Part shown: piece after piece, positions 4,312-20,814 of the stretch | How positions within the stretch are numbered: position 1 is the stretch's first letter | How the letters are laid out: every line of letters starts with the position of its first letter | From: Terriglobales bacterium | Lineage (GTDB): Bacteria; Acidobacteriota; Terriglobia; Terriglobales; Acidobacteriaceae | Assembly: GCA_035623255.1 (NCBI GenBank) | Contig: DASPTU010000125.1 | Location: 166,818-198,817 of the forward strand | Direction: 5' to 3' | DNA length: 32,000 bases | The notes under the pieces: generated by a model | Database searches by the model: none | Told to the model about the DNA's origin: nothing | What the model saw: only the letters and a program-made list of their open reading frames with translations | Position numbers and translations under genes: made by a program

Positions 4312-6009
4312 ATGGCTTGCGATATTTTGATTATGGGAGGTGGAGCTACCGGACAACTGGCGGCGGCTTACTTGCGCAAACGCTTTCCGGCTTTGAGCAT
4401 TACAGTGGTAGAGGGCCCTGGCAAGAACCGTCCCATAGTCGGCGAGTCCTTCGTTGAGCTGACCATTGATTTCCTGCTCGAACTCGGCCTCGGCGCCTAC
4501 CTGGTCGAAGAGCATTATCCCAAATACGGGCTCACCTATTACCACAAACTCAATATTGAAAATCCGGCGGACCGCACCTACTTCGTCGACGAGGCCCCCA
4601 CGGTACCGCCTCAGCTGTCGTTCCAGGTGAACCGCTTCACGTTTGACCGGGAAGTGCGCCGTCGCAACTGCCAGAATGGCGTGCAGATGGTGGCCGGCAC
4701 GGTCGTGTCGGTCGAACTCGCTCAGGCCGGCGAACTGCATTGCATCACGGTGGAAGACGCGGCTCGTCAGAAGTCGGCCTTACACGCCCGATGGTTGATC
4801 GATGCCACTGGACGCAATCGCGTCCTCGCTAAGTCGCTGCACCTTCAGCAAACCGTCAAAGAGCAGAAGAACGTTTTCTGGTTTCGTTTGGCCAACTTTG
4901 ATGCCGACATCATGGGACGCATCCATGCGTTGAAGAAAGAGAACCGCGCTTTCGTTCCCTACTTCGCAACCCATCACTTCTTTGGCAAGGGCAATTGGAT
5001 CTGGTGTATTCCCATGCGCTCTCCGGAGGCGCGCTCATTCATCAGCATCGGCATTACCTACCGTACCGACCAGTACCCGTATGGCGAACCCCGCAACCTG
5101 GAGCAGTTCTTGGAGTGCGTAGGGCAGGAGCACCAGGTCATCGTCGAGCTTGTGCGAAGTGGCACCGTCGTAGACTCGAATTTCTATCGCTCCTACATGT
5201 GGGAGTGCCGACAGCGATATTCACCCGATCGCTGGTACATTCTGGGCGATGCCGGCGATACGGTGGACCCGCTCTACAGCGTCGGTATGGCGCTGGCATC
5301 GATGCAGATCCGCCAAATCGGCGCCATCGTCGAACGTGACCTCGCCGGCCGGGACATCGCTGACTTTACTCGCGACCTCGACACTGTCATTGCCACTTTT
5401 CAGCGCAGTGTGACTCGTGATACCACCCGCCTCTACGAGTGCATGGGTGACCCGTATCAGTGCCACTTGCGGGTTCACCTGGTCGTCAGCAAGCTTTTTC
5501 ATTTCGCCGTCCCGCTGCTGATCAACGGCTATGCCTGGGACCCGCTGGGAGCTAAGCTCATCAACCGCTTCGCCAGCCTGCAAAGGCTTGAAGACGACTC
5601 CCGCCTGTTCCACGACTTGATTCGGAAAGTTGCCCAGGATCCTGAGAACTGCCGGCCGGAAAACTTCATCAAGGTGCAGTCCTCGGATTCCATGAATTAC
5701 AAATTTCTGGAGTGCCACCGCGAGCAGGACATTCCCGATTCCTTGGCGCAACTTCTCTTTTCGCTGGCTCGGTTGCGGCTTGGTCTACTGTTAAAACTCC
5801 GATCGCGGGCCTTGACGCAGTGGCCGCAGCATCGCGCGCTCGTCCTTGATGTTGTTCGCGGGCTGGTGCTAAAGGGGTTGTTCTCAGGCGTCAAATTTCG
5901 CGAAAGCCGCCTGGTACGCCGATTCGTTGCCGGAGCTGAGGCCCAGCCCGGCCCGGCACCGGCGGTTGCTGCTGCCTCCACCCAGCCGGTCAAAACTCCA
6001 TTGACTTGA
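4312..6009 (+). CDS. FAD-dependent enzyme with flavin-dependent halogenase signatures
   Basis: N-terminal GxGxxG (IMGGGATGQ) and a VGES motif. A candidate catalytic Lys lies in YPKYGLTYY. WLIDATGRN and GDAGDTVDPLYSVG are present, and WIWCIP (4996-5013) matches the halogenase-diagnostic WxWxIP. The ~150-aa C-terminal extension ends in a low-complexity A/P tail. Confidence 0.65.
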   Translation: MACDILIMGGGATGQLAAAYLRKRFPALSITVVEGPGKNRPIVGESFVELTIDFLLELGLGAYLVEEHYPKYGLTYYHKLNIENPADRTYFVDEAPTVPPQLSFQVNRFTFDREVRRRNCQNGVQMVAGTVVSVELAQAGELHCITVEDAARQKSALHARWLIDATGRNRVLAKSLHLQQTVKEQKNVFWFRLANFDADIMGRIHALKKENRAFVPYFATHHFFGKGNWIWCIPMRSPEARSFISIGITYRTDQYPYGEPRNLEQFLECVGQEHQVIVELVRSGTVVDSNFYRSYMWECRQRYSPDRWYILGDAGDTVDPLYSVGMALASMQIRQIGAIVERDLAGRDIADFTRDLDTVIATFQRSVTRDTTRLYECMGDPYQCHLRVHLVVSKLFHFAVPLLINGYAWDPLGAKLINRFASLQRLEDDSRLFHDLIRKVAQDPENCRPENFIKVQSSDSMNYKFLECHREQDIPDSLAQLLFSLARLRLGLLLKLRSRALTQWPQHRALVLDVVRGLVLKGLFSGVKFRESRLVRRFVAGAEAQPGPAPAVAAASTQPVKTPLT

Positions 6010-7324
6010 TCGTGCCCGTCGCCTGGGCAAAGTCAATATTGGCTTCGGTGCAGTTGAACTCTGCGGCGACACGGTCGTTGAGCGCGTTTTCTACTCGTGT
6101 CTCCGCGTCCAGCACGTCCAGACTTGTCGCCAAGCCTGCGTCATACCGGCGACGTGCGCGGCCCAGCTCGTCCTGCGCCAGGCCCACCGCGCGTTCCGCC
6201 ACCTGCAGCTGGCTCTGGGCAGAGGCCAGGCTGGCCAGCGCCTGGCGGACCTCCAGTTCTACCTGGTTCTTCAAATCTCGCTGCCGGATCTCCTCCTGTC
6301 GCAACAAGGCATTTGCCTGCCCGCGTTCGGCATCGATCCTGCCGCCATCAAACAACGGCACCCGTAATGATGCCCCGGCGGTGTGAGTGACGATGCCGCT
6401 GAGCAAACCGTAATCGGCAAAGCCGACCAGCGACGGGAGACGTTCCGCCCGCGCGGCACTTTGACCAAGGTGCGCGCCCTCCATTCGGCGCCGCTCGGCC
6501 AGGAACTCCGGTCGCGAACGTAATGCCACTTCCATCGCCTCCGCCGGCGTTGACAGCTGCGCTGGAACGCTGCCCAGTTTTCCTCCCAGATGCAAGCTGG
6601 TGTTCCAATCAATATTCAGCGCTTTGATGAGTTCCAGGTTTGCCCGGATGAGCACCGTTTGCGCTGCCAGCAGGCGCTGCTGGTTGCGCGACATGCTCAA
6701 CTCGGCGCGCGTCACATCCAGCGCAGTGGCCTCACCGGCGTTTTGCCGGCGACCGGCTTGGTCGCGCAGTTCTTGCGCGAGAGCTACGTTTGCCTGCGCA
6801 TTGGCGACGTCCGCCTCTGCGCGCAACGAGGCTGCGTAGAGCCGGGCCACCGTGGCCGCAACTTGCTCGCCCACACTCTGCGTGTCCGCCTCCGCTGCGT
6901 GTACGTCGGCGTGCGCAGCCTGGGAATGCCGAATAGTACTCACGTTCAGCAAATTCTGCGTGAAATGCAGGCGTGCGTCGAATGTGTTGAAAGGCCCCAC
7001 CTCGGTGGGAATCGTAAATCCCGATCCCGGAGGCGTGCTGAAACGGATTCCCAGCGCGTGAAGGTTGATGGTCTGGTCTTGCTCCGTCACACTCCCGTCA
7101 AAGTTGGGTAGTAGCCCGGAGCGAGCCTCCGCGTACCGGAAATGCGAGACATTCACCGATTCCTGCGCCAGCCGGACATCGGTATTGCCGTTCTTGGATA
7201 GCGCGATCTCGATGGCTTTCTGGAGGTTAAGCTCCAACGCCCGGTCCGGTCCACCAGCCGTTTGCCCTTGGCAAACGCTTAGGGATAGCAATGCCATCCC
7301 CCACATGATCCTGAAATTTGCCAT
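5990..7324 (-). CDS. TolC-family outer membrane efflux protein
   Basis: 444 aa with the signal peptide MANFRIMWGMALLSLSVCQG. It has OEP-type A/Q/R/L-rich coiled-coil repeats in two halves. It is divergent from the devBCA-like operon, and its 3' end overlaps the halogenase-like gene by 20 bp. Confidence 0.85.
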   Translation of the reverse strand: MANFRIMWGMALLSLSVCQGQTAGGPDRALELNLQKAIEIALSKNGNTDVRLAQESVNVSHFRYAEARSGLLPNFDGSVTEQDQTINLHALGIRFSTPPGSGFTIPTEVGPFNTFDARLHFTQNLLNVSTIRHSQAAHADVHAAEADTQSVGEQVAATVARLYAASLRAEADVANAQANVALAQELRDQAGRRQNAGEATALDVTRAELSMSRNQQRLLAAQTVLIRANLELIKALNIDWNTSLHLGGKLGSVPAQLSTPAEAMEVALRSRPEFLAERRRMEGAHLGQSAARAERLPSLVGFADYGLLSGIVTHTAGASLRVPLFDGGRIDAERGQANALLRQEEIRQRDLKNQVELEVRQALASLASAQSQLQVAERAVGLAQDELGRARRRYDAGLATSLDVLDAETRVENALNDRVAAEFNCTEANIDFAQATGTIKSMEF

Positions 7325-7508
7325 AGTCTGCCCTCAAGACATGGTGTAATATACTCCCCCGATTATCGGATGGGGATTTTGTTGTCAGTTTCTCCCCCGA
7401 CCCGCCGATACACCGTGACATGCCGTCGTGGCGTTTCCGATCAGCCGTGATTGTCGCGTGCTGAACGACGGCCGTCAAACGCTGACTAGAAATTCGCGAG
7501 GGCGAACC

Positions 7509-8948
7509 ATGATGCGCACACAAGTGGCAATCGTTCCCGTGCTGCTGGTTTGCTTTTCCATCGCTCGGGCGGTTGGCCCGTCGGAGCGCTCCAGCCAGGC
7601 ACAGCTCACTGACGTGCAGGTGCTTGATGACGCTCAAGCCCTGCAGTTGACGTTTAGTTCCGCACAGCACGGAGCACCTCAGCCCGCTACGCTCCGCCAT
7701 CCAGATCGCTTGGTCATCGATCTTCCGCAGACTGTGGTGCTGGAGCCGCGCCGTCTCCTGGTGTCCAGCCATGGCATGAAAGCGGTGCGAGTCGCGCAGC
7801 TCTCGTTGCGTCCGCAGGTGGCCCGCGTAGTCGTGGATTTGACCGCTCCTCTCACGTTTCAATTGCTGCCTCAGGGCGATCGCCTGCTGATCAAGCTCTC
7901 TCCCGAGCAGTCGCAGAAAATCGATGCGTCTGCTTCGGCAGGCCACCAGCCCAGTCCAGAGTCGTTCTCGCTGTCCCTGGTTCCGGCGGTCGCCGCGGCT
8001 TCAGTCAAGCCGACCCGCACCACGGCGACGCCGCCTACCAATGGGGTGGGTTGTTTGGGCCGCATTGAACCAGAAGATGGTGTCCTGCAAGTCAACGGCG
8101 GTTACCTGGAGGGGCGTCCCCAGCGCGTGCGCGAATTAAGAGTGAAAGAAAACGAATTTGTGCATGCTGGCCAGCTCTTGGCCGTCCTCGATGGCAAAGA
8201 TCAGCTCGAAACCGCGGTGCAGCTGGCCGAGGCGCGCGTCGAGCTGGCGCGTTCCCGCCTGGCCCAGGTGAACGCGGGTGCCAGTGCCTCCGAGATCGCT
8301 GCCCAGCAAGCTCAGGTCGAGGAAATCAAAGCCGACCTGCAAAATGCGCGCTCCGAGTACAAGCGATATCAGGAGCTTCGGCAGAACACGGATGTGTCGC
8401 CCGCAGAACTGGACGCGCGTAGCTTGGCGGTGAAAACCGCGGAACAGAAGCTGGCGCAAGCGCAGGAGCGTCTTAAGGCCATTTCCGAGGTCCGCCCCAC
8501 CAATGTAGCCGTGGCCGAATCTGAGCTCCGCGTCGCCCAGGCCGAGGCTGACCATGCCACAGCCAAGCTCAGGACCGCCCTCGTCTATTCTCCGGTGAAC
8601 GGTCGGGTATTGACGATTCACGCCTACCCAGGCGAAGAACTCGGTCCTGCGGGCCTGCTCGATCTTGGCAAGACCGACAACATGTACGTGCGCGCCGAGG
8701 TCTACGAAGACGATATTTCTCGCGTGCATACTGGCCAACAGGCTTATATCACCAGCGACCTGTTCCCAGGCCAGATCTCAGGTGTGGTGGACAGAGTCGG
8801 CAGCACCATTTCGAAGAACAACGTCCTCCCGCTTGATCCCGTCTCTTTCGCAGATGCTCGCGTATTCAACGTCCGTATCCACCTGGATCGCGCCAGCGAT
8901 GTGGCCAACTTCATCCATGCCAAGGTCAATGTGGTGATACGCCCATGA
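7509..8948 (+). CDS. DevB/HlyD-family periplasmic adaptor with an N-terminal AMIN domain
   Basis: From ATG 7509 the protein begins with a signal/anchor sequence, MMRTQVAIVPVLLVCFSIARA. The longest ORF starts at GTG 7428. The AMIN-like pattern at 7605-7907 includes RLVIDLP, VRVAQ, ARVVVDL and RLLIKL. A DevB-like core follows (GRIEPEDGVLQV...VKENEFVHAGQLLAVLD, then a long coiled coil). Confidence 0.85.
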   Translation: MMRTQVAIVPVLLVCFSIARAVGPSERSSQAQLTDVQVLDDAQALQLTFSSAQHGAPQPATLRHPDRLVIDLPQTVVLEPRRLLVSSHGMKAVRVAQLSLRPQVARVVVDLTAPLTFQLLPQGDRLLIKLSPEQSQKIDASASAGHQPSPESFSLSLVPAVAAASVKPTRTTATPPTNGVGCLGRIEPEDGVLQVNGGYLEGRPQRVRELRVKENEFVHAGQLLAVLDGKDQLETAVQLAEARVELARSRLAQVNAGASASEIAAQQAQVEEIKADLQNARSEYKRYQELRQNTDVSPAELDARSLAVKTAEQKLAQAQERLKAISEVRPTNVAVAESELRVAQAEADHATAKLRTALVYSPVNGRVLTIHAYPGEELGPAGLLDLGKTDNMYVRAEVYEDDISRVHTGQQAYITSDLFPGQISGVVDRVGSTISKNNVLPLDPVSFADARVFNVRIHLDRASDVANFIHAKVNVVIRP

Positions 8949-10099
8949 GTGCGCAGATCCCTTTGGCATGGCTGCAGCTTATCCGTATGAAAGGTCGGTT
9001 GATCGCAGCTGTGGCGGGCATCGCCTTCGCCGTCATCTTGGCTTTGGTACAGATGGCATTTCAGGACGCGCTCTACGTCAGTATTACGCAGCTGTATTCC
9101 CACTTCACCGCCGACCTGGTGCTTATCAGCCCGCGCTACCAGTGCATCATTGCTCCGGATGATTTTCCCGAGCGACGGCTTTATCAGTCGCTGGCAGTCG
9201 AAGGCGTGCAGTCGATTGCGGCCGTCTATATGGACATGGCGCAGTGGATTAACCCGATCAACCACTACGAGCGCCAGATCTTTGTGATCGGTTTTAAACC
9301 CGCGCCCGGAGTGCTGGACTTGCCATCAGTAAACCGGAACCTCGCGGAGATTGCGCAACCCGACAAAGTTTTATTTGACGAGGGCTCGCGCCCGGAATTC
9401 GGCCCCATCGGCAAGCTGTTTCGTCAGAACGGATCGGTCACATCCGAACTTTCCCATCGCCACGTGCAGGTCGTCGGCTTGTTCCAGGTGGGCGCCAGTT
9501 TTGCTAACGATGGCAACGTCATCACCAGCGACACAAATTTCCTGCGCATCGCTCCCTATCGGCAGCTCGGCATCGTGGACATTGGCCTCATCCGTGTTCA
9601 GCCGGGCACCGATATCGAAGCCGCTCGGAGTAAGCTGGCCGCCATGCTTCCGCGCGATGTCGTCGTGCTCACCAAGCAAGGCTTTCTCGATCGTGAAAAG
9701 AACTACTGGGCTTCGAGTATGCCCATCGGTTTCGTGCTGGGAGTATCGTTGGTCATGGGGTTGGTCGTCGGTGTCGTCATTGTTTACCAGATCCTTTACA
9801 GCGACGTGTCTGAGCACCTCTCCGAATTCGCCACCCTCAAGGCCATTGGCTACTCCGATCGTCGCCTGTTCTGGATCGTGGTGCAGGAGGCGCTCATTTT
9901 GGCGGTGCTGGGGTTCTTTCCGGGCCTGCTGATGGCATTGGGCGTCTACCAGATTGCTCGGTCTGCCACCGTGCTCCCGATTCAGATGACCACCGTCCGT
10001 CTTGTGGTCGTTTTTTTCCTGACGCTTGCGATGTGCGGCATTTCAGGATGTCTGGCAGTGCGTAAATTGCGCTCTGCCGATCCGGCCGAGATTTTCTAG
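8945..10099 (+). CDS. DevC-family ABC exporter permease (FtsX-type)
   Basis: 384 aa. The N-terminus IPLAWLQLIRMKGRLIAAVAGIAFAVIL is typical of DevC, and there is a C-terminal FtsX 3-TM bundle. ATGA start/stop overlap with the adaptor gene implies translational coupling. Confidence 0.85.
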   Translation: MSAQIPLAWLQLIRMKGRLIAAVAGIAFAVILALVQMAFQDALYVSITQLYSHFTADLVLISPRYQCIIAPDDFPERRLYQSLAVEGVQSIAAVYMDMAQWINPINHYERQIFVIGFKPAPGVLDLPSVNRNLAEIAQPDKVLFDEGSRPEFGPIGKLFRQNGSVTSELSHRHVQVVGLFQVGASFANDGNVITSDTNFLRIAPYRQLGIVDIGLIRVQPGTDIEAARSKLAAMLPRDVVVLTKQGFLDREKNYWASSMPIGFVLGVSLVMGLVVGVVIVYQILYSDVSEHLSEFATLKAIGYSDRRLFWIVVQEALILAVLGFFPGLLMALGVYQIARSATVLPIQMTTVRLVVVFFLTLAMCGISGCLAVRKLRSADPAEIF

Positions 10100-10108
10100 G
10101 CTCTGAGT

Positions 10109-11449
10109 ATGGAAACGGTAATCTCTATCCGCGAAGTCAACCACTATTTTGGCACGGGCGATTTGCGCCGCCAGATTCTGTTTGGCGTGTCCACCGACAT
10201 TTCACCGGGTGAGATTGTGATCCTGACAGGCCCTTCGGGATCAGGCAAAAGTACCCTACTCACTTTGGCCGGCGCTTTGCGGTCGGTTCAGGAAGGCAGC
10301 CTGCAGATTTTGGGCCGCCAACTTAAAGGCGCCGATAACCTTGAACTCGTGCGCGTGCGCGCCAATATCGGTTTCATTTTTCAAGCGCACAATCTCCTGG
10401 AAGCTCTTACCAGCCGCCAGAATGTGCAAATGTCACTGGCGCTGACTCCGGAATTGTCCGAGAGCGAAGTGCGTGCGCGTTGCGATGCGATGCTGGAGGC
10501 TGTTGGGCTAGGGCACCGCATCGACGCTTATCCTTCAGAACTATCGGGAGGTCAGCGACAGCGCGTCGCCGTGGCTCGCGCCCTCGTGCATCAGCCCAAA
10601 ATCATCCTTGCCGATGAACCCACCGCCGCTCTCGATCGCAAAACCGGCCGGGAAATCGTGGAGTTGCTGCACTCCCTGGCCAAGCATCAGGGCTGCGCCA
10701 TTCTGATGGTCACTCACGACAACCGTATTCTCGACATCGCTGACCGGGTGTTGACTCTCGAGGATGGTCGCATTACATCCTTTGTGGCCGGCTTCGCCGC
10801 CAACACTGGCCGTATGCTTTCTACCTTTGCTCAGTTGCAGCGCAAGGGAGAATTGCTGCGCCATGTCAGCGGCATGTCCAGCCGCCAGTTCCTCGACGTA
10901 CTCGATCACATGACCTCAGAATTCGACCAGTTTCTGCAGATCGTTGATCTCGGCAACCAGCAAGCCGTGCAGGCCCTTTTCGACCACATGCTGGAAGCAG
11001 TATTGATGAAAATCCGGCAATTGCTGGATGCCGATCGCGGCACGCTCTTCCTCGTGGACCACGACCGCGGGAAACTGTGGTCCAAAGTGGCCGAGACTGA
11101 TGGCGCGGAGCCTCTGAGAATCGAGATACCCAGTAACGTTGGAATCGCAGGCTACGTCGCCCGCACTGGACAGACGCTCAATATCACCGATCCCTATCAA
11201 CATCCCGACTTCAACCCGGAGGTAGACCGCCGGACTGCCTATCGCACAAAGAGCATACTGTGCATGCCGATTTTCGACCGCCAGAGGAATGTGTTTGCGG
11301 TCGCAGAGTTGCTTAACAAGCGCACCGGCCAGCCATTTGCCGCCGCCGACGAGCAGGCTTTTCGCGAGTTCGCCCCGCCTCTGGGCCTGATCCTGGAAAG
11401 CTGCCTGCGCATGACCCAGGAGCGCACCGACTTAGCCTTGGCCGCCTGA
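10109..11449 (+). CDS. DevA-family ABC ATPase fused to a C-terminal GAF domain
   Basis: Residues 1-222 carry Walker A GPSGSGKST, LSGGQRQR, Walker B IILADEPT, and DevA-like motifs NHYFG and LRSVQEGSL. Residues ~286-435 (10964-11413) are GAF-like: DRGTLFLVD...LWSKV...IPSNVGIAGYVARTGQTLNITDPYQHPDFNPEVD...ILCMPIFD...VFAVAELLNK. Confidence 0.85.
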   Translation: METVISIREVNHYFGTGDLRRQILFGVSTDISPGEIVILTGPSGSGKSTLLTLAGALRSVQEGSLQILGRQLKGADNLELVRVRANIGFIFQAHNLLEALTSRQNVQMSLALTPELSESEVRARCDAMLEAVGLGHRIDAYPSELSGGQRQRVAVARALVHQPKIILADEPTAALDRKTGREIVELLHSLAKHQGCAILMVTHDNRILDIADRVLTLEDGRITSFVAGFAANTGRMLSTFAQLQRKGELLRHVSGMSSRQFLDVLDHMTSEFDQFLQIVDLGNQQAVQALFDHMLEAVLMKIRQLLDADRGTLFLVDHDRGKLWSKVAETDGAEPLRIEIPSNVGIAGYVARTGQTLNITDPYQHPDFNPEVDRRTAYRTKSILCMPIFDRQRNVFAVAELLNKRTGQPFAAADEQAFREFAPPLGLILESCLRMTQERTDLALAA

Positions 11450-11457
11450 ACCCGTTG

Positions 11458-12708
11458 TCAGGCCACGTTACGCAGCACCAACGCTGAATTCTTGCTCCCG
11501 AACGCGATGCAATTACACACCGCCCATTCCGGCTGCATGCGGCGGCCGCACTCCGGAACGTAGTCCAGGTCGCACTCCGGATCGGGGCTCTCCAAATTGA
11601 GGGTGGGAGGCAGCACGCCGTCTCGCATCGCCAAAAGCGTGCACGCTACGCCCGCGGCGCCGCAAGCGCCTTGAGGGTGTCCGATGTGACTTTTAACTGA
11701 CGACCCCGCCAGCCGGTAAGCGTGGCCGTTGAATGCGAGTTTGATGGCCCGCGTTTCAATCCGGTCGTTCAGTTCCGTCGAAGTGCCGTGGTAGTGCACG
11801 TATTCGACGGCTGGCGGACTGATTCCCGCATCTTCGATTGCCATCTGGATAGTACGCGCGGGCTCCTCACCACACTCCTGCAAGCGGACCCGATGGTAGG
11901 CCTCGCAGGTCGAAGCGTAGCCTGCCACTTCGCCGTAAATTCGCGCACCCCGCGCCTTGGCCCGTTCCATATCTTCGAGCACGAAAAACCACGCCCCCTC
12001 GCCCAGCACAAAGCCGTCCCGATCGCGGGAAAACGGGCGTGATCCTCGTTCCGGTTGATCGTTCCATCGGGTCGTGAGGATTCGCATCAGGAGAAAACCC
12101 CGAATGATGAGCGGGGCTATGGGAGCATCCACCCCGCCTACCACCATGTAGTCGAGGTTACTCGAACGCATATGTTGGCAGGCATAGCCGATGGCATCGG
12201 TGGAGGAGGTGCAACCCGTCGAGATCACGTGGCTAAGCCCCCGAAATCCGAAATACATCGAGAACTCGCTCGCTAACGTTCCGATGGTGGAGGTGGGAAT
12301 CACATACACACTGCATTGCTTGATTTTGCCCTCGTAGTACAGCCGGTACTGCTCCTCGGTAAAATCCTGGCTGCCTCCGCCTGAACCAATCATCACGCCC
12401 ACGCGCCGCAGCTCGTCGATGCTCATGGACTGGTAGTCGATCCCGGCGTCTTCCAGGGCCTCCTTGATCGCCGCCCGCCCTAGCGGCACCGCCCGTGAAA
12501 CGTGTTGGCGGTTCAGCGGGTCCACATATTGCTCTTCGGGGAAATCCAACACCTCTCCCGCAATCTGCACCTTGAGGTGGTCGGGATTAAAGCGGGAAAT
12601 GCGGTGCACACCGCTGACGCCGCGCCGGGTTGCGCTCCAAAACGCTTCCCGACCTATGCCGTTGGGGCTGACAGCTCCGATTCCAGTTACTACGACCCGC
12701 CTTCTCAT
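11458..12708 (-). CDS. Beta-ketoacyl-ACP synthase (KAS I/II-type condensing enzyme)
   Basis: 416 aa with an intact Cys-His-His triad: STGCTSS, YHGTSTELND and KSHIGHPQG. The TGCTSS context is more like type II PKS KS-alpha than housekeeping FabF (from memory). Confidence 0.9.
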   Translation of the reverse strand: MRRRVVVTGIGAVSPNGIGREAFWSATRRGVSGVHRISRFNPDHLKVQIAGEVLDFPEEQYVDPLNRQHVSRAVPLGRAAIKEALEDAGIDYQSMSIDELRRVGVMIGSGGGSQDFTEEQYRLYYEGKIKQCSVYVIPTSTIGTLASEFSMYFGFRGLSHVISTGCTSSTDAIGYACQHMRSSNLDYMVVGGVDAPIAPLIIRGFLLMRILTTRWNDQPERGSRPFSRDRDGFVLGEGAWFFVLEDMERAKARGARIYGEVAGYASTCEAYHRVRLQECGEEPARTIQMAIEDAGISPPAVEYVHYHGTSTELNDRIETRAIKLAFNGHAYRLAGSSVKSHIGHPQGACGAAGVACTLLAMRDGVLPPTLNLESPDPECDLDYVPECGRRMQPEWAVCNCIAFGSKNSALVLRNVA

Positions 12709-13050: not shown

Positions 13051-13308
13051 ATGGACTCTGAAGTGGCGACCAAGGTTCTGGCGATTGTGGCCTCTGTCAA
13101 GCGTGTGGACCCGGCTACCATTTCCCCCGATGCCGCGTTCGAGGAGCTGGGAATTGATTCCCTCGACCGGCTCAACATCCTGTTCGAACTGGAGAACACC
13201 TTCAACATCGATGTACCCGACGACGAGGCGCGGGCGGTGGTCACAGTAAAAGATATGATAGAGCGCCTCGAATCATATCTACAGCGGCGAACCGCACAGG
13301 GAGCCTAG
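13051..13308 (+). CDS. Acyl carrier protein
   Basis: 85 aa with the phosphopantetheine attachment motif LGIDSLDRL. It lies immediately upstream of a KS gene. Confidence 0.9.
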   Translation: MDSEVATKVLAIVASVKRVDPATISPDAAFEELGIDSLDRLNILFELENTFNIDVPDDEARAVVTVKDMIERLESYLQRRTAQGA

Positions 13309-13317: not shown

Positions 13318-14541
13318 ATGTCTCGCGTCGCTATTACCGGCCTCGGTGTCGTCTGTGCGCTGGGCAAGAACGTCAGCGAATTTCGCGAGCGCTTGTTTGC
13401 CGGCCGCTCCGCCATCCTTCCAATTACCGGCGTGGATACTTCCTCCTTGCGTTTTCGCCAGGGCGCCGAGGTACAGGATTTCAATCCCTCTGAATATTTC
13501 GACAACACGCAGCGTGAATTACTCGACCGTTTCGCGCAATTCAGTGTTCTGGCCGCCCGTCAGGCTATGGCCGATGCCGGCATCACCATCACTCCCGACC
13601 TTGCACCCCGAACCGCGGTGATCGTAGGCGCCTCGATGGGCGGAAAATCTACGGAAGACGGTGGGTATCAGGAACTGTATCTCCACCGCCGCACACGTCT
13701 GCACCCCCTTATCATTCCCCGTAGCATGGCGAACGCTGGCGCGAGCAACATCTGCATGGAGTTCGGAATCACCGGCCCGGCAATGGCCATCAGCACCGCT
13801 TGTTCGTCCGCCAACCACGCCATGGGGCTGGCCTTCGCGATGGTACGCTCCGGGCAGGTCGATGTGGCGATCACAGGCGGCAGCGAAGCTCCCTTCAGCT
13901 ACGGCATGCTGAAAGCCTGGGAGGCCATGCGCGTCGTGTCTCCTGATACTTGCCGCCCTTTCTCCAGCGACCGTTCCGGCCTTATTCTCGGCGAGGGTGG
14001 GGCCATTTTGGTGTTGGAACCTCTGGAGCGCGCCCGCGAGCGCGGCGCCAATATCTACGGTGAGATCATCGGTTTCGGCATGTCCTCCGACGCTCAGCAC
14101 ATTACTCGACCTTGCCTTGCTGGTCCAGCCCAGGCCATGAAAAATGCGATGGCCGATGCTGCCATCGAGCCCGCTGCCGTGGGATACATTAATGCCCATG
14201 GCACGGGAACCGAGACCAACGATCGGGTCGAAACCCAGGCCATTCGCGCCGTTTTTGCCCGCCATGCGGACCGAGTGCTCGTCAGCTCTACCAAGTCCAT
14301 GCACGGCCACGCGCTGGGAGCGGCCGGCGCAATTGAAGGTGTTGCCACCGTCCTCGCCTTGCGAGAGCGAATGATTCCCCCGACTGCGAACTTCACCTCG
14401 CCCGACCCGGAATGTAACCTTAACCTGGTGGTCAACAAGGGCCAACCCGCCGAGGTAGAGTGCGCCCTATCTAACTCCTTTGCCTTCGGCGGCTTGAATG
14501 CGGTTTTGGCCTTCCGCGCTCCCGCTGCCTTAGGGCTCTGA
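13318..14541 (+). CDS. Beta-ketoacyl-ACP synthase II-like condensing enzyme
   Basis: 407 aa with an intact triad: ISTACSSANHA, NAHGTGTETND and KSMHGHALGAAG. There is a 9-nt gap after the ACP stop. Confidence 0.9.
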   Translation: MSRVAITGLGVVCALGKNVSEFRERLFAGRSAILPITGVDTSSLRFRQGAEVQDFNPSEYFDNTQRELLDRFAQFSVLAARQAMADAGITITPDLAPRTAVIVGASMGGKSTEDGGYQELYLHRRTRLHPLIIPRSMANAGASNICMEFGITGPAMAISTACSSANHAMGLAFAMVRSGQVDVAITGGSEAPFSYGMLKAWEAMRVVSPDTCRPFSSDRSGLILGEGGAILVLEPLERARERGANIYGEIIGFGMSSDAQHITRPCLAGPAQAMKNAMADAAIEPAAVGYINAHGTGTETNDRVETQAIRAVFARHADRVLVSSTKSMHGHALGAAGAIEGVATVLALRERMIPPTANFTSPDPECNLNLVVNKGQPAEVECALSNSFAFGGLNAVLAFRAPAALGL

Positions 14542-14748: not shown

Positions 14749-16401
14749 ATGCACGTGTCGGAAGTGGGGCTCCGACAACTCGCATCGTCCGGTTGCCCTG
14801 GCCAGGAAGAAGACTTTCCTCCGCTCGGCCGCAACATCAAGGTGCTGATGGTCTGGCCGCGTGTTCCCAAATCATTTTGGGCAACGCCCGACATTCTTCC
14901 CGTAAGCGCCGTGACGGCCCCCTTGGGGCTCATCACCGTGGCCGCTTTATGCCCGCCGTATTGGACCGTCCGGCTCATCGACGAATCGGTCGAAGACGTA
15001 ACCGATGCTGACCTCCGTGATTGCGACTTGGTCATGGTCAGCGGCATGTACGTCCAGAGGAGCGGCATCGAGAGGATCCTCGGACGAGCTCGCGCCCTCG
15101 GGAAACGCACCATGGTAGGTGGCCCGTTCACCAGCAGCGACCCCAACACTGTGCTCCCCCTGGCGGATCATGTCGTGGTGGGTGAACCTGACGCGGAGTT
15201 CCGCCGCATCGCAACCGCGCTCGAAGAGGGCACCGCGGCCCGCCTTTATGTCATCGAGGACAAACCCGATGTAACCTGCACACCTGTGCCCCGATTCGAC
15301 CTGCTGAACATGAATGCTTACGCCAACATGCCGATACAGTTTTCCCGGGGCTGCCCGTTCGAATGCGAGTTCTGCGACATTATTTCGATATATGGACGAA
15401 GGCCTCGCACCAAAACTCCCGCGCAGCTTCTCCGTGAACTCGATCGCTTGTACGAGTTGGGATGGCGAAGGCCCGTCTTCCTGGTCGACGACAATTTCAT
15501 TGGCAATCACAAACTGGCACTTAACCTGACCCGTCAGATGGAGGGATGGTCGCGAGCGCACAACTATCCCTTCGCATTCCTGACCGAGGCTTCCGCTGAC
15601 CTGGCACAGCGACCCTTACTGCTGCAATCCATGGTCGAGGCCAACTTCTTTGCGGTATTCCTTGGCCTTGAAACCCCTTCCAGCGACGCACTCAAGGAAA
15701 CCAGAAAATTTCAGAACTTGCGCGCTGATCCCTTAGCGACGGTCCGTTTTCTTCAGGAAAATGGCCTCTGGATCCTGGGAGGTTTCATCATCGGTTTCGA
15801 CTCCGACACCGCCGGCATTTTTGAGCAGCAACGCGAGTTCATTGAGCGCGCGGCCATTCCCTGGGCCATGCTGGGATTTCTGCAGGCGCTGCCTCAGACG
15901 GGCCTGTACGAGCGCCTCCGCAAGGAGGGTCGGCTCCTCAAAGGTGAGCCGATCGGCAATAACTATGCGCCGCCCAACTTCCGTACTCTTCTGCCCCGCA
16001 CGACCCTGGTCAAAGGCGTCGGGGATACGCTGCGGTCTATCTACTCCCCTGCTGAGTTCTATCGCCGCTGCCTTCGTTCCCTGGAGTACTGGAAAACACG
16101 CGAGCCCCAGCAACCACCCCGGCCCAGATTAGGAGAAGCGATGCTTCTGGTAGTTCGCTGCCTTTGGCACCAGGGCGTGAAATCCAATTACCGCAGAGAA
16201 TGGTGGAAGTTCCTGTTCGCCATTCTGCGCCGCTGGCTTTTTGTGCCCATGAAAATGTGGTGGGGATGGGTATTGTTAATTTCGGCCGATCACTTTTGTC
16301 AGTACGCCGCCCAAGTAGTGGCAGAGCTCAATCGCGAAGCACAGACCCAAAAGAGCGAGCCTTTGCCGACGAGGTCGGAATCCGCAGTTTGCGCTCGGTA
16401 G
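14749..16401 (+). CDS. B12-binding-domain radical SAM enzyme (class B, long C-terminal extension as in the DUF4070 type)
   Basis: The N-terminal cobalamin-binding-like region reads IKVLMVWPRVPKSFW...DLVMVSGM. The radical SAM cluster motif CPFECEFC (CxxxCxxC) is at 15352-15375. Start ATG 14749 is preferred over TTG 14725. Confidence 0.85.
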   Translation: MHVSEVGLRQLASSGCPGQEEDFPPLGRNIKVLMVWPRVPKSFWATPDILPVSAVTAPLGLITVAALCPPYWTVRLIDESVEDVTDADLRDCDLVMVSGMYVQRSGIERILGRARALGKRTMVGGPFTSSDPNTVLPLADHVVVGEPDAEFRRIATALEEGTAARLYVIEDKPDVTCTPVPRFDLLNMNAYANMPIQFSRGCPFECEFCDIISIYGRRPRTKTPAQLLRELDRLYELGWRRPVFLVDDNFIGNHKLALNLTRQMEGWSRAHNYPFAFLTEASADLAQRPLLLQSMVEANFFAVFLGLETPSSDALKETRKFQNLRADPLATVRFLQENGLWILGGFIIGFDSDTAGIFEQQREFIERAAIPWAMLGFLQALPQTGLYERLRKEGRLLKGEPIGNNYAPPNFRTLLPRTTLVKGVGDTLRSIYSPAEFYRRCLRSLEYWKTREPQQPPRPRLGEAMLLVVRCLWHQGVKSNYRREWWKFLFAILRRWLFVPMKMWWGWVLLISADHFCQYAAQVVAELNREAQTQKSEPLPTRSESAVCAR

Positions 16402-16412: not shown

Positions 16413-17816
16413 TCAGTTCTCTGCGTGCCCCAGGGCTTGAAGGGGGTGGCCTGAGTCGCGTAGTGGCTGCGCGTGCAGCGTCATCATGATTTTTCGGCGC
16501 GGCCGCAAACTGATCCGGGGCTCTGTACCGATCGGCGGACCGGGAACGACATCCAGGCGCCATCGTTGTGCAATCATCGCCAGCACCAGCTCCGCTTCCA
16601 TGCTGGCAAAGCGTTTGCCCAAACAAAGTCGTGGCCCTCCTCCGAAGGGAAAATAAGAGAACGGATGACGTCCTTGCGAGCGGTCGGGCGAAAATCGTTC
16701 TGGGTCGAAGCCTTCCGGGTTTTCCCATGAAGCGGGCCGGCGGTGTGCCGAGTAGGGACTGATCACAAGTACCGACTTCGCCGGTATGTGGTAACCATCG
16801 ATGTTGTCGTCCGCGATTGCCGTCCGAGCAATGGCCCAGGCGGAAGGATAAAGCCGCAGCGTCTCCTGGACGACCATGCGCGTATAAACCATTCGAGGAA
16901 GATCGTGAAACGTCGGCGTGCGCTCTCCCAGCAGGTCGCGCACTTCGTGGTACAGCTTTGTCGCGGCCACCGGGTTTCGGGACAGCAAATACCATGCCCA
17001 GGCGATCGCGTTGGCGGTCGAATCGTATCCCGAATCCACGAGCGTGATCATCGCATCCCGAATGTGCCGGTCATCCAGGCCGGAACCATTGTCTCTGTCG
17101 CCCACCAGCAGGGACAATACGTCCGTCTGCTGCTGGGGGCAGCGCCGCCGCCGCTCGATCAACCCGTAGGCGAAACTGTCGATGGTACGCAGCGCCTTGC
17201 GCAGTCTCAGATTGGCCGGCGTCGGCAAACGGTTCAACAACGGCCGCAACGGATTTAAGCCGGATGCCGGCTTAATCCGCTGTTCCGCCGTCTCCAGGGC
17301 GGGGCACAAACTTGCGCCATGCACCGCCAGTTGCGTGCTGAACAGGGTCCTCAAGAGGATATCCAGCGTGAGATTGCGCATTTGCTCGCGGATGTCGATA
17401 GCCCGGCCGGACTCGCCTGTCTCATCCCATGCGCGCAGCAGATTGAGGGTCGCCTCTACGATGATCCGCGCAAATTCCGGATCGTGATCGCTATAAAACG
17501 CAGGTTGCGTTTGCCGGCGCTGGCGATGCCACTCTTCTCCCTCGGCCGTAACCAGCCCATCACCATGCATTCTTCTCAACTCGTCGTAGAGTGAACCCTT
17601 GCTGTAATTCATGTAATTGTCTTGCAGAATGTGTTTGATGTGCTGAGGGTCGTTCAGCAGGAACACCGGCCGCAGACGCCGGTGGCCGACGCGAACTACA
17701 TCGCCATACTCGCCGAAGAGTTGTAACAACAGGTTGGGCGCATCCTGCAGAAGACTAGGCAGCAGGCGGATAAATTCCAACGTCGAAGGTCCAGGAGCAA
17801 CTCTTGCGATCTTCAT
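16413..17816 (-). CDS. Cytochrome P450, paralogue of the 2845-4254 gene
   Basis: Heme loop FPFGGGPRLCLG and ExxR ETLRLYPS are present. The I-helix is the variant DSGYDSTA, and EGEEWHRQRRQTQPAF is also present. The longest ORF starts at GTG 17906. ATG 17816 (MKIARVAPGP...) gives a typical P450 length. Confidence 0.88.
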   Translation of the reverse strand: MKIARVAPGPSTLEFIRLLPSLLQDAPNLLLQLFGEYGDVVRVGHRRLRPVFLLNDPQHIKHILQDNYMNYSKGSLYDELRRMHGDGLVTAEGEEWHRQRRQTQPAFYSDHDPEFARIIVEATLNLLRAWDETGESGRAIDIREQMRNLTLDILLRTLFSTQLAVHGASLCPALETAEQRIKPASGLNPLRPLLNRLPTPANLRLRKALRTIDSFAYGLIERRRRCPQQQTDVLSLLVGDRDNGSGLDDRHIRDAMITLVDSGYDSTANAIAWAWYLLSRNPVAATKLYHEVRDLLGERTPTFHDLPRMVYTRMVVQETLRLYPSAWAIARTAIADDNIDGYHIPAKSVLVISPYSAHRRPASWENPEGFDPERFSPDRSQGRHPFSYFPFGGGPRLCLGKRFASMEAELVLAMIAQRWRLDVVPGPPIGTEPRISLRPRRKIMMTLHAQPLRDSGHPLQALGHAEN

Positions 17817-18181
17817 GCGGCTGCACACGGTATCGGGCGCCGCCCGATAAGCTGAGGTCATCGCCAATGGGCACCTCCCGTCTGTTGCTCCGGGGGCCGG
17901 AAGCACTGAAGCGAAGTACGTCAGCCCGCCCGGCTCTCCCGATGCCAGCGAAGCACGGTCTTAAATCCGCGACAAGACCGGCACTCGAGAGAAACAGAGC
18001 GTATCCGCATGCCCCGTCCCAGACTCGTCTGACGCGCATCAGCATACGCCCAGCCATTCTGAAGTCAAGTCCGGCGCGGCTTTCTTCACGCCCACTATTG
18101 AGAAAGCCAATCCTTCAGCCGCACGATTATCGCCTGAATCGCCTTCTTCCAGCGGCGCAACTCAACGTTCCACTTTGCACC

Positions 18182-19722: not shown

Positions 19723-20814
19723 ATGTATGACCTGATCGTCATTGGCGGCGGACCGGCAGGCGCCTCCGCGGCCATCACTTCCTGCCGAACCGGTGCTCAC
19801 GTCCTGCTGCTCGAGCGTGGCCGTTTCCCTCGCCACAAAGTTTGCGGCGAGTTCGTCTCGGCTGAGGCACTCGGGTTGCTCGGCTCCTTGCTTGAACTTA
19901 CTTATTCCAGTCTCCCGTACGCAGTCCCAATTCCACGAGCAAGATTTTTTGTCGATGACCGCGTACTAGAGGCAGCAGTTCAACCGGCAGCCGCTAGCAT
20001 AGCCCGTCTAGACCTCGACAGATCCTTGTGGGACTCCGCCGAGCGATGCGGCACCGAAGCCAGGCAGCAGGTCATCGTGCAGAACTTAAGCGGCTCCGGC
20101 CCATTTGTCGTCTGCACTTCGATTGGCGATTTCGAAACCCGTGCTGTCGTGAATGCATCAGGCCGCTGGTCGACTTTGAATGGAGCGCAGTCGCGCAACG
20201 GAAACGGAGGTGCGAAGTGGATCGGTCTCAAGGCTCACTACCTGGAGCCTGCCCCGCCCGCGTCCGTCGACCTTTACTTTTTCGATGGTGGCTATTGCGG
20301 CGTCCAGCCCGTAAACCTGAGTTCCGCTCACGATCAAGCTCGCGTCAACGCCTGCGCCATGGTGCGGGCCGATGTCGCTTCGACCATGCCGGAAACATTT
20401 GAGCTGCATCCGGCACTACGTGAACGGGCGGCCCGATGGACACCCGTCATGAATCCGGTTGGTGTGTCGCCGCTCTTGTTTGGGAAACCTCGGCCTATCG
20501 AGGGGAGCGTCCTATCCGTGGGCGATGCCGCAGGCTTTGTCGACCCCTTCGTCGGGGATGGAATCTCGCTTGCCTTGCGGAGTGGCGCGCTGGCCGCAGA
20601 GTCACTCGCCCCGTTCTTTGCTGGCCAACTTTCGCTGGCCCAGGCAATCAGGCAATATGCTGAAAGCTATCAGCTACATTTCGCTTCTGTCTTCCGGTCA
20701 TCATCCAGGATTCGTCGGATGCTGCGTCTGCCCCGTCCCGTCCGCGCCCCAATTCTGTCACTTCTGGCGCACAGCACGGCCGTTACCGAGTACCTGGTGA
20801 GGCAGACAAGATGA
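19723..20814 (+). CDS. FAD-dependent oxidoreductase (geranylgeranyl-reductase-like fold)
   Basis: 363 aa with the dinucleotide motif DLIVIGGGPAGASAA, HKVCGEFVS, and the second FAD motif GDAAGFVDPFVGDGISLAL. Confidence 0.8.
   Translation: MYDLIVIGGGPAGASAAITSCRTGAHVLLLERGRFPRHKVCGEFVSAEALGLLGSLLELTYSSLPYAVPIPRARFFVDDRVLEAAVQPAAASIARLDLDRSLWDSAERCGTEARQQVIVQNLSGSGPFVVCTSIGDFETRAVVNASGRWSTLNGAQSRNGNGGAKWIGLKAHYLEPAPPASVDLYFFDGGYCGVQPVNLSSAHDQARVNACAMVRADVASTMPETFELHPALRERAARWTPVMNPVGVSPLLFGKPRPIEGSVLSVGDAAGFVDPFVGDGISLALRSGALAAESLAPFFAGQLSLAQAIRQYAESYQLHFASVFRSSSRIRRMLRLPRPVRAPILSLLAHSTAVTEYLVRQTR

What the first reader, a model, noticed from the sequence alone, without database searches (positions are those of the whole stretch)
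14749..16401. B12-binding radical SAM enzyme directly downstream of ACP-KS: candidate for chemistry at unactivated lipid carbons
The gene follows the KS after a 207-bp gap and carries an N-terminal cobalamin-binding-type region plus CPFECEFC. Class-B radical SAM enzymes methylate, or form C-C bonds at, unactivated sp3 carbons. Known examples are the hopanoid C-methylases, and several lipid-modifying enzymes have been proposed. Acidobacteria make unusual mid-chain-methylated and membrane-spanning lipids whose enzymology is only partly assigned. A KS-linked B12-rSAM is therefore a plausible, unproven candidate for such a step on the product of this cluster.
Basis: inference. Interest (0 to 1): 0.6.

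Follow-up and report, generated by a model that had tools for sequence, protein, structure and literature searches.

The report
Orphan B12 radical enzyme, P450-paired
The gene is a real vitamin-B12-type radical SAM enzyme from a large uncharacterised family related to, but distinct from, the hopanoid methylase HpnP; its conserved partner is the neighbouring lipid-type P450, not the ketosynthase, so a role in tailoring a lipid chain is plausible but unproven.

Summary
Window 14749-16401 (+) encodes a 550-aa protein with a B12-binding-type domain, a radical SAM core (CPFECEFC) and DUF4070, 207 bp after an ACP-KS pair.

- **Family.** This three-domain architecture defines "HpnP and HpnP-like" proteins. 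This protein is not HpnP: 20 of 26 sampled Terriglobia genomes with a close homologue lack squalene-hopene cyclase. Its clade is also separate from an operationally defined HpnP clade.
- **Context of the wider family.** Members sharing 50-60% identity are nearly always solitary. No neighbour family recurs in more than 4 of 116 loci.
- **KS linkage.** It is seen only here and in one close MAG, where the two proteins have consecutive GenBank accessions.
- **Conserved partner.** In the query's subclade the partner is the convergent P450 (16413-17906). Its few orthologues share a contig with subclade rSAMs in one related genome and, by matching contig lengths and sources, in three metagenome assemblies.
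- **Fatty-acid genes upstream.** Two lineages independently carry such genes just upstream of the rSAM: ACP-KS here, and a desaturase plus cyclopropane-synthase-type methyltransferase cassette in another genome.

Best reading, at moderate confidence: a B12-dependent C-methylase (or other radical modifier) of a long-chain lipid made, oxidised and exported by this island. Function is untested. The scan has noted HpnP-like orphans in other genomes before.

The parts
14749..16401 (+). B12-binding / radical SAM / DUF4070 enzyme (550 aa), 'HpnP-like' family, the subject of the finding
   Evidence: ORF and translation; Pfam; fold match to class-B radical SAM structures; 169 of 172 conserved family positions kept
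14908..15207 (+). N-terminal cobalamin-binding-type Rossmann domain (residues 54-153)
   Evidence: Pfam PF02310, 31.5 bits, E 1.8e-7, just under the gathering score; strand/helix alternation in the model
15352..15375 (+). CPFECEFC: CX3CX2C motif for the radical SAM [4Fe-4S] cluster (Cys202, 206, 209)
   Evidence: Translation; invariant in the 13-sequence alignment
15898..16329 (+). DUF4070 C-terminal domain, ending in Trp/Arg-rich helices (residues about 461-535)
   Evidence: Pfam PF13282, 91.5 bits; helices in the model; composition 7 Trp and 12 Arg/Lys in 80 residues
14542..14748 (+). 207-bp spacer between KS2 and the rSAM gene; no terminator-like site, no Rfam element
16413..17906 (-). Cytochrome P450 ('P450b'), convergent, 11 bp from the rSAM stop; the conserved partner of this rSAM subclade
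   Evidence: Pfam. Only 8 other clusters reach 63% identity or more, then a drop to 45%. One contig shared with a subclade rSAM in G414 directly, and in three metagenome assemblies by matching contig length and sources. Nearest solved P450s act on carotenoids, sterols and fatty acids.
13318..14541 (+). KS2, NodE/FabF-type beta-ketoacyl-ACP synthase
   Evidence: Pfam and NCBIfam; active-site His motifs read; an 88% homologue lies adjacent to the 83% rSAM homologue in one MAG
13051..13308 (+). Dedicated acyl carrier protein; always directly upstream of KS2-type genes
   Evidence: Pfam and NCBIfam; ACP upstream in 18 of 18 KS2-like loci
11458..12708 (-). KS1, second ketosynthase, divergent from ACP-KS2; its 84% orthologue lies next to the P450b orthologue in G414
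5990..11449 (.). TolC-type channel (5990-7324, -) and DevB, DevC, DevA-GAF exporter (7428-11449, +)
   Evidence: NCBIfam DevB, DevC and DevA above cut-off; a 74% DevA-GAF orthologue flanks KS1 in G414
176..2802 (+). ABC exporter (176-1933) and SAM methyltransferase (1969-2802), linked to ACP-KS2 homologues in other genomes
   Evidence: Pfam; L185/L186 exporter 63-66% identical, divergent from ACP; L179 has ACP-KS2-MT (50%)-FAD enzyme (44%)
19723..20814 (+). FAD-dependent oxidoreductase, probable right-hand end of the island
   Evidence: Pfam; a 44% homologue follows ACP-KS2-MT in L179

Best explanation
The gene encodes a functional class-B (cobalamin-type) radical SAM enzyme of the uncharacterised 'HpnP-like' family (B12-binding + radical SAM + DUF4070). 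It is not the hopanoid C-2 methylase itself.

Inferred mechanism, not shown: the [4Fe-4S] cluster on Cys202/206/209 cleaves SAM to a 5'-deoxyadenosyl radical. That radical abstracts a hydrogen from an unactivated sp3 carbon of a lipophilic long-chain substrate. Methylcobalamin, re-methylated by a second SAM, then delivers a methyl group.

In this lineage the enzyme works as a pair with the convergent lipid-type P450. The pair sits in an island that supplies a dedicated ACP and two ketosynthases (NodFE-like chain building with housekeeping Fab enzymes), further tailoring enzymes, and DevBCA-TolC plus ABC export. The most likely product is a methyl-branched, oxygenated long-chain acyl lipid delivered to the cell envelope.

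Shown: enzyme class, family placement, gene linkage. Inferred: cobalamin use, methylation, the nature of the substrate, co-transcription with ACP-KS2.
For: - **Class and intactness.**
- **Conserved pair.** P450b orthologues form a tiny group. In G414 (L067) one lies on the same contig as a subclade rSAM. On the 5469-bp contig the two genes must lie within about 2.4 kb.
- **KS2 adjacency.** It is kept in one MAG: MBV8050724.1 and MBV8050725.1 on the same 10126-bp contig.
- **Two independent recruitments of fatty-acid genes just upstream of the rSAM.** Here it is ACP-KS2. In G414 it is a FA-desaturase plus CMAS-type methyltransferase cassette flanked by a 172-bp direct repeat that includes the rSAM 5' end.
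- **Sporadic fatty-acid neighbours of other family members.** Desaturase in L155, CMAS in L140, KS in L046, L097 and L115.
- **P450b type.** Its nearest solved relatives oxidise carotenoids, sterols and fatty acids.
- **Island coherence.** The methyltransferase, FAD enzyme and ABC exporter of this window sit beside ACP-KS2 homologues in other genomes. DevA-GAF, KS1 and P450b are syntenic in G414.
- **Cofactor.** The genome has B12-dependent MetH, so cobalamin is in use.
- **Spacer.** No terminator-like site in the 207-bp spacer.
Against: - The wider family is solitary: no neighbour family recurs in more than 4 of 116 loci, and the recurring neighbour families are ordinary housekeeping types.
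- The query keeps the family's conserved core. It therefore probably does what the solitary members do, on a substrate that need not come from this island.
- KS2-like pairs and the rSAM family occur without each other in many genomes: f6 and f7 have KS2-like genes but mostly lack the family, while f11 has the family but no KS2-like gene.
- The KS2 adjacency is seen only in two close relatives, which amounts to one evolutionary event.
- The same-genus genome G472 has a subclade copy but no P450b or KS1 orthologue at the thresholds used.
- The B12-binding hit is just below Pfam's cut-off. From my own knowledge, the best structural match, AprD4, has a B12-like domain yet does not use cobalamin.
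- There is no experimental datum of any kind.
Confidence: 0.42

Rival explanations
1. Housekeeping orphan. The enzyme does the same, still unknown, job as the thousands of solitary family members, on a common cellular substrate unrelated to this island. Its position after ACP-KS2 and against the P450 would be local synteny without functional meaning.
For: Solitary context in 116 loci. The conserved core is unchanged. There is no mutual dependence with KS2-like genes across families. The 207-bp spacer allows an independent promoter. G472 carries a subclade copy without P450b or KS1.
Against: P450b orthologues are very few, and at least five of the nine clusters, this window's own included, share a contig with subclade rSAMs, across rSAM identities of only 61-64% to the query. 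Fatty-acid genes were placed directly upstream of the rSAM twice, independently, once inside a duplication of the rSAM's own 5' region.
Confidence: 0.25
2. Isoprenoid modifier. Together with the P450, the enzyme methylates or otherwise modifies a hopanoid or another polyisoprenoid lipid, as its relative HpnP does. The KS and ACP genes would belong to a separate pathway.
For: The architecture is identical to HpnP's (PMC10697835). The genome has squalene-hopene cyclase, as do all 28 sampled genomes of its family. P450b's best NCBIfam and PDB relatives include terpenoid, carotenoid and sterol oxygenases. A distant DUF4070 homologue sits in a cyclase, squalene-epoxidase and P450 cluster (L194).
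Against: 20 of 26 sampled genomes with a close family member lack hopene cyclase, at 90-100% completeness. The family clade is separate from the clade found only in cyclase-positive cyanobacteria. The gene is not on the contig that holds the cyclase (C3). A BLAST survey of acidobacterial genomes found hpnP only in Koribacter (PMC5462960).
Confidence: 0.13
3. Same lipid substrate, different chemistry. The enzyme does not methylate. It performs another class-B reaction on the alkyl chain: ring formation, O2-independent desaturation or C-C coupling, as the archaeal GrsA/B and Ted enzymes do.
For: Class-B enzymes related to methylases carry out cyclisation and desaturation of lipid tails (10.1101/2025.10.20.683597; PMC13459092). 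Sequence alone cannot tell these apart. In G414 a SAM-dependent CMAS-type methyltransferase and a desaturase already sit in the same operon, which could make a second methylase redundant.
Against: Most characterised class-B enzymes are methyltransferases (PMC12931638), including the family's closest named relative, HpnP. No feature here argues for another reaction.
Confidence: 0.15

Closest known systems
HpnP, hopanoid C-2 methylase (Rhodopseudomonas palustris TIE-1; Ca. Koribacter versatilis WP_011523124.1), and the uncharacterised 'HpnP-like' clades of Hoshino et al. 2023 (PMC10697835)
   Same: The same three-domain architecture: B12-binding, radical SAM, DUF4070. Presumed B12-dependent radical methylation of an unactivated carbon of a membrane lipid. 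Often a stand-alone gene.
   Different: It does not depend on hopanoid synthesis: 20 of 26 carrier genomes lack the cyclase. It forms a separate clade from the cyclase-restricted clade. It shares only 34-36% identity with the members of that clade. Its substrate is unknown.
Archaeal lipid-tail class-B radical SAM enzymes: GrsA/GrsB (ring synthases), Gmm/Cgm/Pgm (GDGT methylases), Ted (desaturase)
   Same: B12-type radical SAM enzymes that modify unactivated carbons of membrane-lipid alkyl chains. Their genes are often solitary or loosely clustered.
   Different: No sequence relationship was shown here. DUF4070 is not detected in the Sulfolobus, Methanosarcina or Methanocaldococcus control genomes. 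Their substrates are isoprenoid ethers.
QCMT/MgmA (PDB 9CCB), methyl-coenzyme M reductase glutamine C-methyltransferase
   Same: The nearest solved structure by sequence (E 3.9e-9) and third by fold. A class-B methylase of an sp3 carbon.
   Different: 18% identity. It acts on a protein substrate, is archaeal, and the TIGR04014 score is 49.8 bits against a cut-off of 360.
NodF/NodE, and the AcpXL very-long-chain fatty acid system of rhizobia (compared from my own knowledge)
   Same: A dedicated ACP plus FabF-type KS that divert housekeeping fatty-acid synthesis towards a special acyl chain for an envelope or secreted lipid. JGI names KS2 homologues 'nodulation protein E'.
   Different: No radical SAM enzyme or P450 is part of those systems. 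There are no Nod or LpxXL genes here.
DevBCA-HgdD heterocyst glycolipid export with hgl synthases (Anabaena)
   Same: A DevB/DevC/DevA exporter above NCBIfam cut-offs, plus a TolC-type channel, beside genes that build a long-chain lipid.
   Different: There is no hgl-type multidomain PKS and no glycosyltransferase. DevA carries a GAF domain. The organism is an acidobacterium.

Membership tests
Class B (cobalamin-type) radical SAM enzymes | CX3CX2C radical SAM cluster motif in a partial TIM-barrel core | tested here: met
   CPFECEFC at residues 202-209; PF04055, 48.9 bits; invariant in the family alignment
Class B (cobalamin-type) radical SAM enzymes | N-terminal Rossmann-type cobalamin-binding domain | tested here: met
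   PF02310 E 1.8e-7, 31.5 bits against a gathering score of 32.1. Homologues carry the precomputed PF02310 call. The fold matches OxsB, TsrM, TokK, CysS and MgmA.
Class B (cobalamin-type) radical SAM enzymes | Actual binding and use of cobalamin | not testable with these tools
   From my own knowledge, the top fold hit AprD4 has the domain but uses no cobalamin. The genome has B12-dependent MetH, but CobQ was not found at 88.6% completeness.
HpnP-like proteins (sensu Hoshino et al. 2023) | B12-binding + radical SAM + DUF4070 in one polypeptide | tested here: met
   definition from PMC10697835
HpnP (hopanoid C-2 methylase) proper | Occurs in genomes that make hopanoids (squalene-hopene cyclase present) | tested here: not met
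   Only 6 of 26 class-sample genomes with a close homologue (E at most 1e-182) have TIGR01507 above threshold. The own genome does have it.
HpnP (hopanoid C-2 methylase) proper | Falls inside the HpnP clade in a phylogeny | tested here: not met
   This is an operational test only. A long-stem clade of six cyanobacterial sequences occurs only in cyclase-positive genomes, and the query's clade is separate with 100% SH-aLRT support. No experimentally verified HpnP sequence could be retrieved, so the clade label is inferred.
HpnR / HpnJ / BchE / ladderane B12-rSAM / PhpK / QCMT (NCBIfam equivalogs) | Score at or above the curated cut-off of the family model | tested here: not met
   Scores against cut-offs: TIGR04367 41.7 vs 650; TIGR03471 34.7 vs 578; TIGR02026 42.9 vs 481; TIGR04072 48.1 vs 360; TIGR04479 55.2 vs 600; TIGR04014 49.8 vs 360
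Tes / Mss membrane-spanning lipid synthases | Sequence homology to the confirmed synthases (PSI-BLAST e at most 1e-50 and at least 30% identity in PMC13159169) | not tested
   No reference sequence or model was at hand. DUF4070 does not ring in the Thermotoga, Methanocaldococcus, Methanosarcina or Sulfolobus control genomes. That paper found no mss homologues in Acidobacteria.
Biosynthetic gene cluster tailoring enzyme (functional linkage to the ACP-KS island) | Linkage to the cluster genes conserved beyond close relatives | tested here: inconclusive
   P450b linkage is conserved in G414 and, by matching contig lengths and sources, on three metagenome contigs. KS2 linkage is found only in one close MAG. 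It is absent in 116 loci of the wider family.

The most novel reading that the evidence does not exclude
The large, mostly solitary Terriglobia family to which this gene belongs could be the missing bacterial enzyme that modifies mid-chain carbons of acidobacterial membrane lipids. One example would be the C5/C6 methylation (or ring formation) of iso-diabolic-acid and branched-GDGT chains that underlies soil palaeothermometers. The family has thousands of soil and peat metagenome members and is near-universal in one family of the class. In that case the P450-paired, KS-linked copy in this window would be a version recruited to a specialised exported lipid. Nothing here excludes this. The enzyme for those methylations is still unassigned (PMC10087280). 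The family is independent of hopanoids, keeps a very conserved core, and picks up fatty-acid genes as neighbours when it has any.
Probability: 0.07. Interest if true: 0.9.

Novelty: new variant of a known kind. Interest (0 to 1): 0.45.

Why it matters
B12-type radical SAM enzymes are the main known way to put methyl groups, rings or bonds on unactivated lipid carbons. In bacteria only the hopanoid enzymes are assigned. Soil Acidobacteria make methyl-branched and membrane-spanning lipids that serve as climate proxies, and the enzymes for these are largely unknown.

This work shows that the gene belongs to a very abundant, hopanoid-independent 'HpnP-like' family. It also identifies a small subclade with a fixed P450 partner and repeated recruitment of fatty-acid genes. 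That gives a concrete, small gene set (ACP, KS, rSAM, P450) to express and assay. If the family acts on acyl chains, it would assign a function to thousands of orphan soil genes. If it does not, the KS linkage is a local accident and the family remains an orphan.

Tried and rejected
1. **True HpnP.** Rejected on the cyclase co-occurrence test and the tree.
2. **Family-wide KS linkage.** Rejected. tblastn of all window proteins against 36 genome loci and 80 metagenome loci found no ACP-KS2 orthologue. All-against-all clustering of neighbours found nothing recurrent, and a Pfam tally of 101 neighbours gave ordinary housekeeping families as the recurring ones.
3. **Phylogenetic-profile link between the rSAM family and KS2-like genes.** In the own family, 23 of 27 carriers also have a KS2-like gene. 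Rejected as evidence for three reasons: at class level each occurs widely without the other; the 1e-130 threshold probably catches the housekeeping FabF in family f5; and the genes lie 46-210 kb apart where both are on one contig.
4. **Riboswitch or terminator in the 207-bp spacer.** None found.
5. **A 5'-end duplication like the one in G414, around ACP-KS2 in this window.** None found.
6. **More cluster genes upstream of the window.** The 19 kb upstream are unrelated: a two-component system and transporters.
7. **A transmembrane anchor.** No convincing one. Only Trp/Arg-rich C-terminal helices.
8. **ESM Atlas.** It returned only unnamed DUF4070 clusters.
10. **Verified HpnP, Tes, Mss or Grs sequences.** None could be obtained, so no direct comparison was made.
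Full report
**Observation**

The window has an ORF at 14725-16401 (+). The ATG at 14749 is the likely start. It is preceded by GAGG, and the 83%-identical homologue P0003 begins at the same residues.

Pfam finds DUF4070 (91.5 bits), Radical_SAM (48.9 bits) and B12-binding (31.5 bits, E 1.8e-7, just under the 32.1-bit cut-off). CPFECEFC lies at residues 202-209.

An AlphaFold model built on 13 homologues (pLDDT 69, pTM 0.70) matches class-B radical SAM structures first. The top hits are AprD4, MgmA/QCMT (9CCB), OxsB, TsrM, CysS and TokK, ahead of MiaB and RimO. By sequence the nearest solved chain is 9CCB, identified as QCMT in PMC12931638.

**Surroundings**

The window carries these genes:

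| Coordinates | Strand | Gene |
|---|---|---|
| 176-1933 | + | ABC exporter |
| 1969-2802 | + | SAM methyltransferase |
| 2845-4254 | + | P450 |
| 4312-6009 | + | Halogenase-like flavoenzyme |
| 5990-7324 | - | TolC-type channel |
| 7428-11449 | + | DevB, DevC and DevA-GAF, all above NCBIfam cut-offs |
| 11458-12708 | - | KS1 |
| 13051-13308 | + | ACP |
| 13318-14541 | + | KS2 |
| 14749-16401 | + | The rSAM |
| 16413-17906 | - | Convergent P450 ('P450b'), 11 bp from the rSAM stop |
| 18182-19462 | - | CPA2 antiporter |
| 19723-20814 | + | FAD oxidoreductase |

The 19 kb upstream of the window hold unrelated genes. No multidomain PKS and no KR, DH, ER or AT genes are present. Any chain building by KS1, ACP and KS2 would therefore lean on the housekeeping Fab enzymes, as NodFE does (inference).

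There is no Rfam element in the window and no terminator-like site in the 207-bp spacer.

**The family**

The protein has thousands of relatives sharing 55-64% identity in soil and peat metagenomes and Terriglobia MAGs. All carry the same three domains. It is the only DUF4070 protein in its genome.

In a sample of 201 genomes of its class, 69 have a match. These fall into a close tier (51-63% identity) and a second tier (41-47%). In 401 genomes of its own family only 57 have a match, 28 of them in the close tier. The close tier is therefore patchy in the own family, and it is common in families f2, f5 and f11.

Hoshino et al. define 'HpnP and HpnP-like proteins' by exactly this architecture. 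They state that the HpnP-like clades are uncharacterised (PMC10697835).

**Is it HpnP?**

The genome has a squalene-hopene cyclase on another contig. Yet of the 26 sampled class genomes with a close-tier homologue, only 6 have the cyclase. The other 20, at 90-100% completeness, do not.

In 121 cyanobacterial genomes, 45 carry one to four homologues sharing 39-45% identity, and 18 of those 45 lack the cyclase. A distinct group with the weakest matches to the query (E about 1e-81 to 1e-84 against 1e-113 or better; 34-36% identity by tblastn) is found in six genomes, all of them cyclase-positive.

In a tree, that group forms a long-stem clade together with an acidobacterial homologue that sits in a cluster of a cyclase-like gene, a squalene epoxidase and a P450. 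The Terriglobia close tier is a separate clade with 100% support.

I take the cyclase-restricted clade to be HpnP. This is an inference, because no verified HpnP sequence could be retrieved. A published BLAST survey found hpnP in Koribacter alone among acidobacterial genomes (PMC5462960). HpnR, HpnJ, BchE, the ladderane model, PhpK and QCMT all score far below their cut-offs. The protein is therefore HpnP-like, not HpnP.

**Is the KS linkage conserved?**

I fetched 10 kb on each side, where the contig allowed, for 36 close-tier genes from genomes, and for 80 family members from metagenomes. The 116 loci comprise 76 close-tier and 40 second-tier members.

None has an orthologue of ACP or KS2 nearby. 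Only one (G414) has orthologues of KS1, the P450s or DevBCA. A FabF-level KS (35-37% identity) lies 4-8 kb away in three loci. Clustering all neighbours shows that no family recurs in more than 4 of 116 loci. A Pfam tally of 101 immediate neighbours lists glucanotransferase, RmlD, nucleoside hydrolase and similar families, each two or three times. The family is essentially solitary.

The reverse test gives the same answer. KS2-like genes (53-68% identity) occur in 74 of 400 genomes of the own family. An ACP lies directly upstream in 18 of 18 loci examined. The rSAM is never adjacent. Their commonest partners are a convergent class I/II aminotransferase-fold gene and an SDR gene, in eight and seven of those loci respectively.

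At class level, each of the two gene types occurs widely without the other.

**What is conserved**

In the tree, the query and P0003 sit on a long stem inside a 15-member subclade. This subclade is distinct from the main clade of the own family's copies. Three results bear on it.

- **KS2 adjacency in one MAG.** P0003 is MBV8050724.1, and the 88%-identical KS2 homologue is MBV8050725.1. Both are on a 10126-bp contig of one Acidobacteriaceae MAG. The KS2-rSAM adjacency therefore exists in a second genome, but a closely related one.
- **P450b as the fixed partner.** P450b has only eight other clusters sharing 63-84% identity among 5.8 billion proteins, followed by a drop to 45%.
  - Four of them share contig length and sources with subclade rSAMs: 5469 bp (P0245 with P0005), 31767 bp (P0248 with P0008), 37074 bp (P0249 with P0007) and 14431 bp (P0247 with P0363).
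  - P0363 is the G414 protein.
  - G414 shows the arrangement directly: DevA-GAF (74%), KS1 (84%) and P450b (69%), then an antiporter, then the rSAM 4.3 kb from the P450.
- **A cassette inserted at the rSAM in G414.** There the rSAM is immediately preceded by a fatty-acid desaturase and a CMAS-type methyltransferase, and followed by a second radical SAM gene. That two-gene cassette is flanked by a 172-bp direct repeat (87% identity) that includes the first 109 bp of the rSAM gene. So it was inserted at the rSAM's own 5' end.

Fatty-acid genes have thus been placed directly upstream of this rSAM twice, in two lineages.

P450b's nearest solved relatives are CYP97 carotenoid hydroxylases, CYP170A1, CYP46A1, CYP4B1 and CYP102, all of which act on lipophilic chains. 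Parts of the window's island also travel with ACP-KS2 elsewhere: the methyltransferase and FAD enzyme in L179, and the ABC exporter in L185 and L186.

**Counter-evidence**

- The query keeps 169 of 172 positions that are at least 95% conserved in 88 other family members. The three changes are mild (A92C, Q205E, I307L), no more than in other lineages. It therefore probably performs the family's usual reaction. The family's usual members have no cluster, so the substrate may be a common cell component.
- The same-genus genome G472 has a divergent subclade copy but no P450b or KS1 orthologue at the thresholds used.
- Cobalamin use is inferred. The genome has MetH, but CobQ was not found.

**Mechanism proposed**

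The [4Fe-4S] cluster on Cys202/206/209 reductively cleaves SAM. The resulting 5'-deoxyadenosyl radical abstracts a hydrogen from an unactivated carbon of a long-chain lipid. Methylcobalamin donates the methyl group, and a second SAM reloads the cobalamin.

This follows established class-B chemistry (PMC12931638, PMC13459092) and is an inference for this protein. Cyclisation, desaturation or coupling cannot be excluded (10.1101/2025.10.20.683597). The P450 would oxidise the same chain. The Dev/TolC and ABC systems would export the product.

**Novelty**

Membership of an already noted but uncharacterised HpnP-like group is not new. Four things are new here:

- the family's independence from hopanoid synthesis across Terriglobia;
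- its solitary habit;
- a small subclade with a fixed P450 partner;
- two independent fusions with fatty-acid genes.

The enzyme for the C5/C6 methylation of branched tetraethers is unassigned (PMC10087280). Acidobacteria also lack Mss (PMC13159169). A lipid-chain role for this abundant family would therefore matter. The present evidence for such a role is circumstantial.

**Caveats**

- The tallies include unpublished genomes. G097 is one of the six carriers with the cyclase, and G075 and G106 enter the cyclase and KS2 counts. No locus from them was analysed further.
- Earlier notes of this scan describe other HpnP-like orphans in glycan, phospholipid and peptide-like contexts. These are leads only.

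Noticed in passing
L067 (G414:C267) 5928-6098 and 8529-8700: A 172-bp direct repeat (87% identity) holds about 63 bp of upstream DNA plus the first 109 bp of the rSAM gene. It flanks a fatty-acid desaturase plus CMAS-type methyltransferase cassette. This is the scar of a recent insertion that put the cassette under the rSAM's own 5' region.
   Followed up: partly
L194 (G008:C25:20000-38000): An acidobacterial DUF4070 radical SAM gene (31% identity to the query) lies beside an HlyD/FtsX exporter, a P450, a squalene/oxidosqualene-cyclase-like gene scoring below the hopene cyclase cut-off, and a squalene epoxidase. This looks like a sterol- or triterpenoid-type cluster with its own B12-type enzyme. 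The protein groups with the cyclase-restricted cyanobacterial clade.
   Followed up: partly
L183, L184, L186-L191 (KS2-like loci in the own family): The ACP-KS2 pair is most often convergent with a class I/II aminotransferase-fold gene (in eight loci; possibly an alpha-oxoamine synthase) and an NAD-dependent epimerase/SDR gene (in seven). This layout recalls bacterial sphingoid-base or amino-lipid synthesis. These two genes are not near ACP-KS2 in the window's genome.
   Followed up: partly
L195 (G159:C53) 3814-11958: A distant DUF4070 radical SAM gene (34% identity) lies directly downstream of a 2189-aa ORF, which was not annotated here.
   Followed up: no
window 16413-17906 and 2845-4254: The two P450s of the island share 38% identity. 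P450b belongs to a very small orthologous group, only 9 clusters in the large protein collection. One JGI annotation calls a member 'enediyne biosynthesis protein E7', which is probably just a best-KO label.
   Followed up: partly
cyanobacterial genomes G589, G658, G580, G673: Single cyanobacterial genomes carry up to four paralogues of the HpnP-like family, including genomes without squalene-hopene cyclase. So the family has expanded in Cyanobacteria independently of hopanoids.
   Followed up: partly
window 18182-19462: The CPA2 antiporter gene next to P450b also lies next to the P450b orthologue in G414 (41% identity, opposite orientation). It is therefore a recurrent neighbour of the module, not a random insertion.
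   Followed up: no
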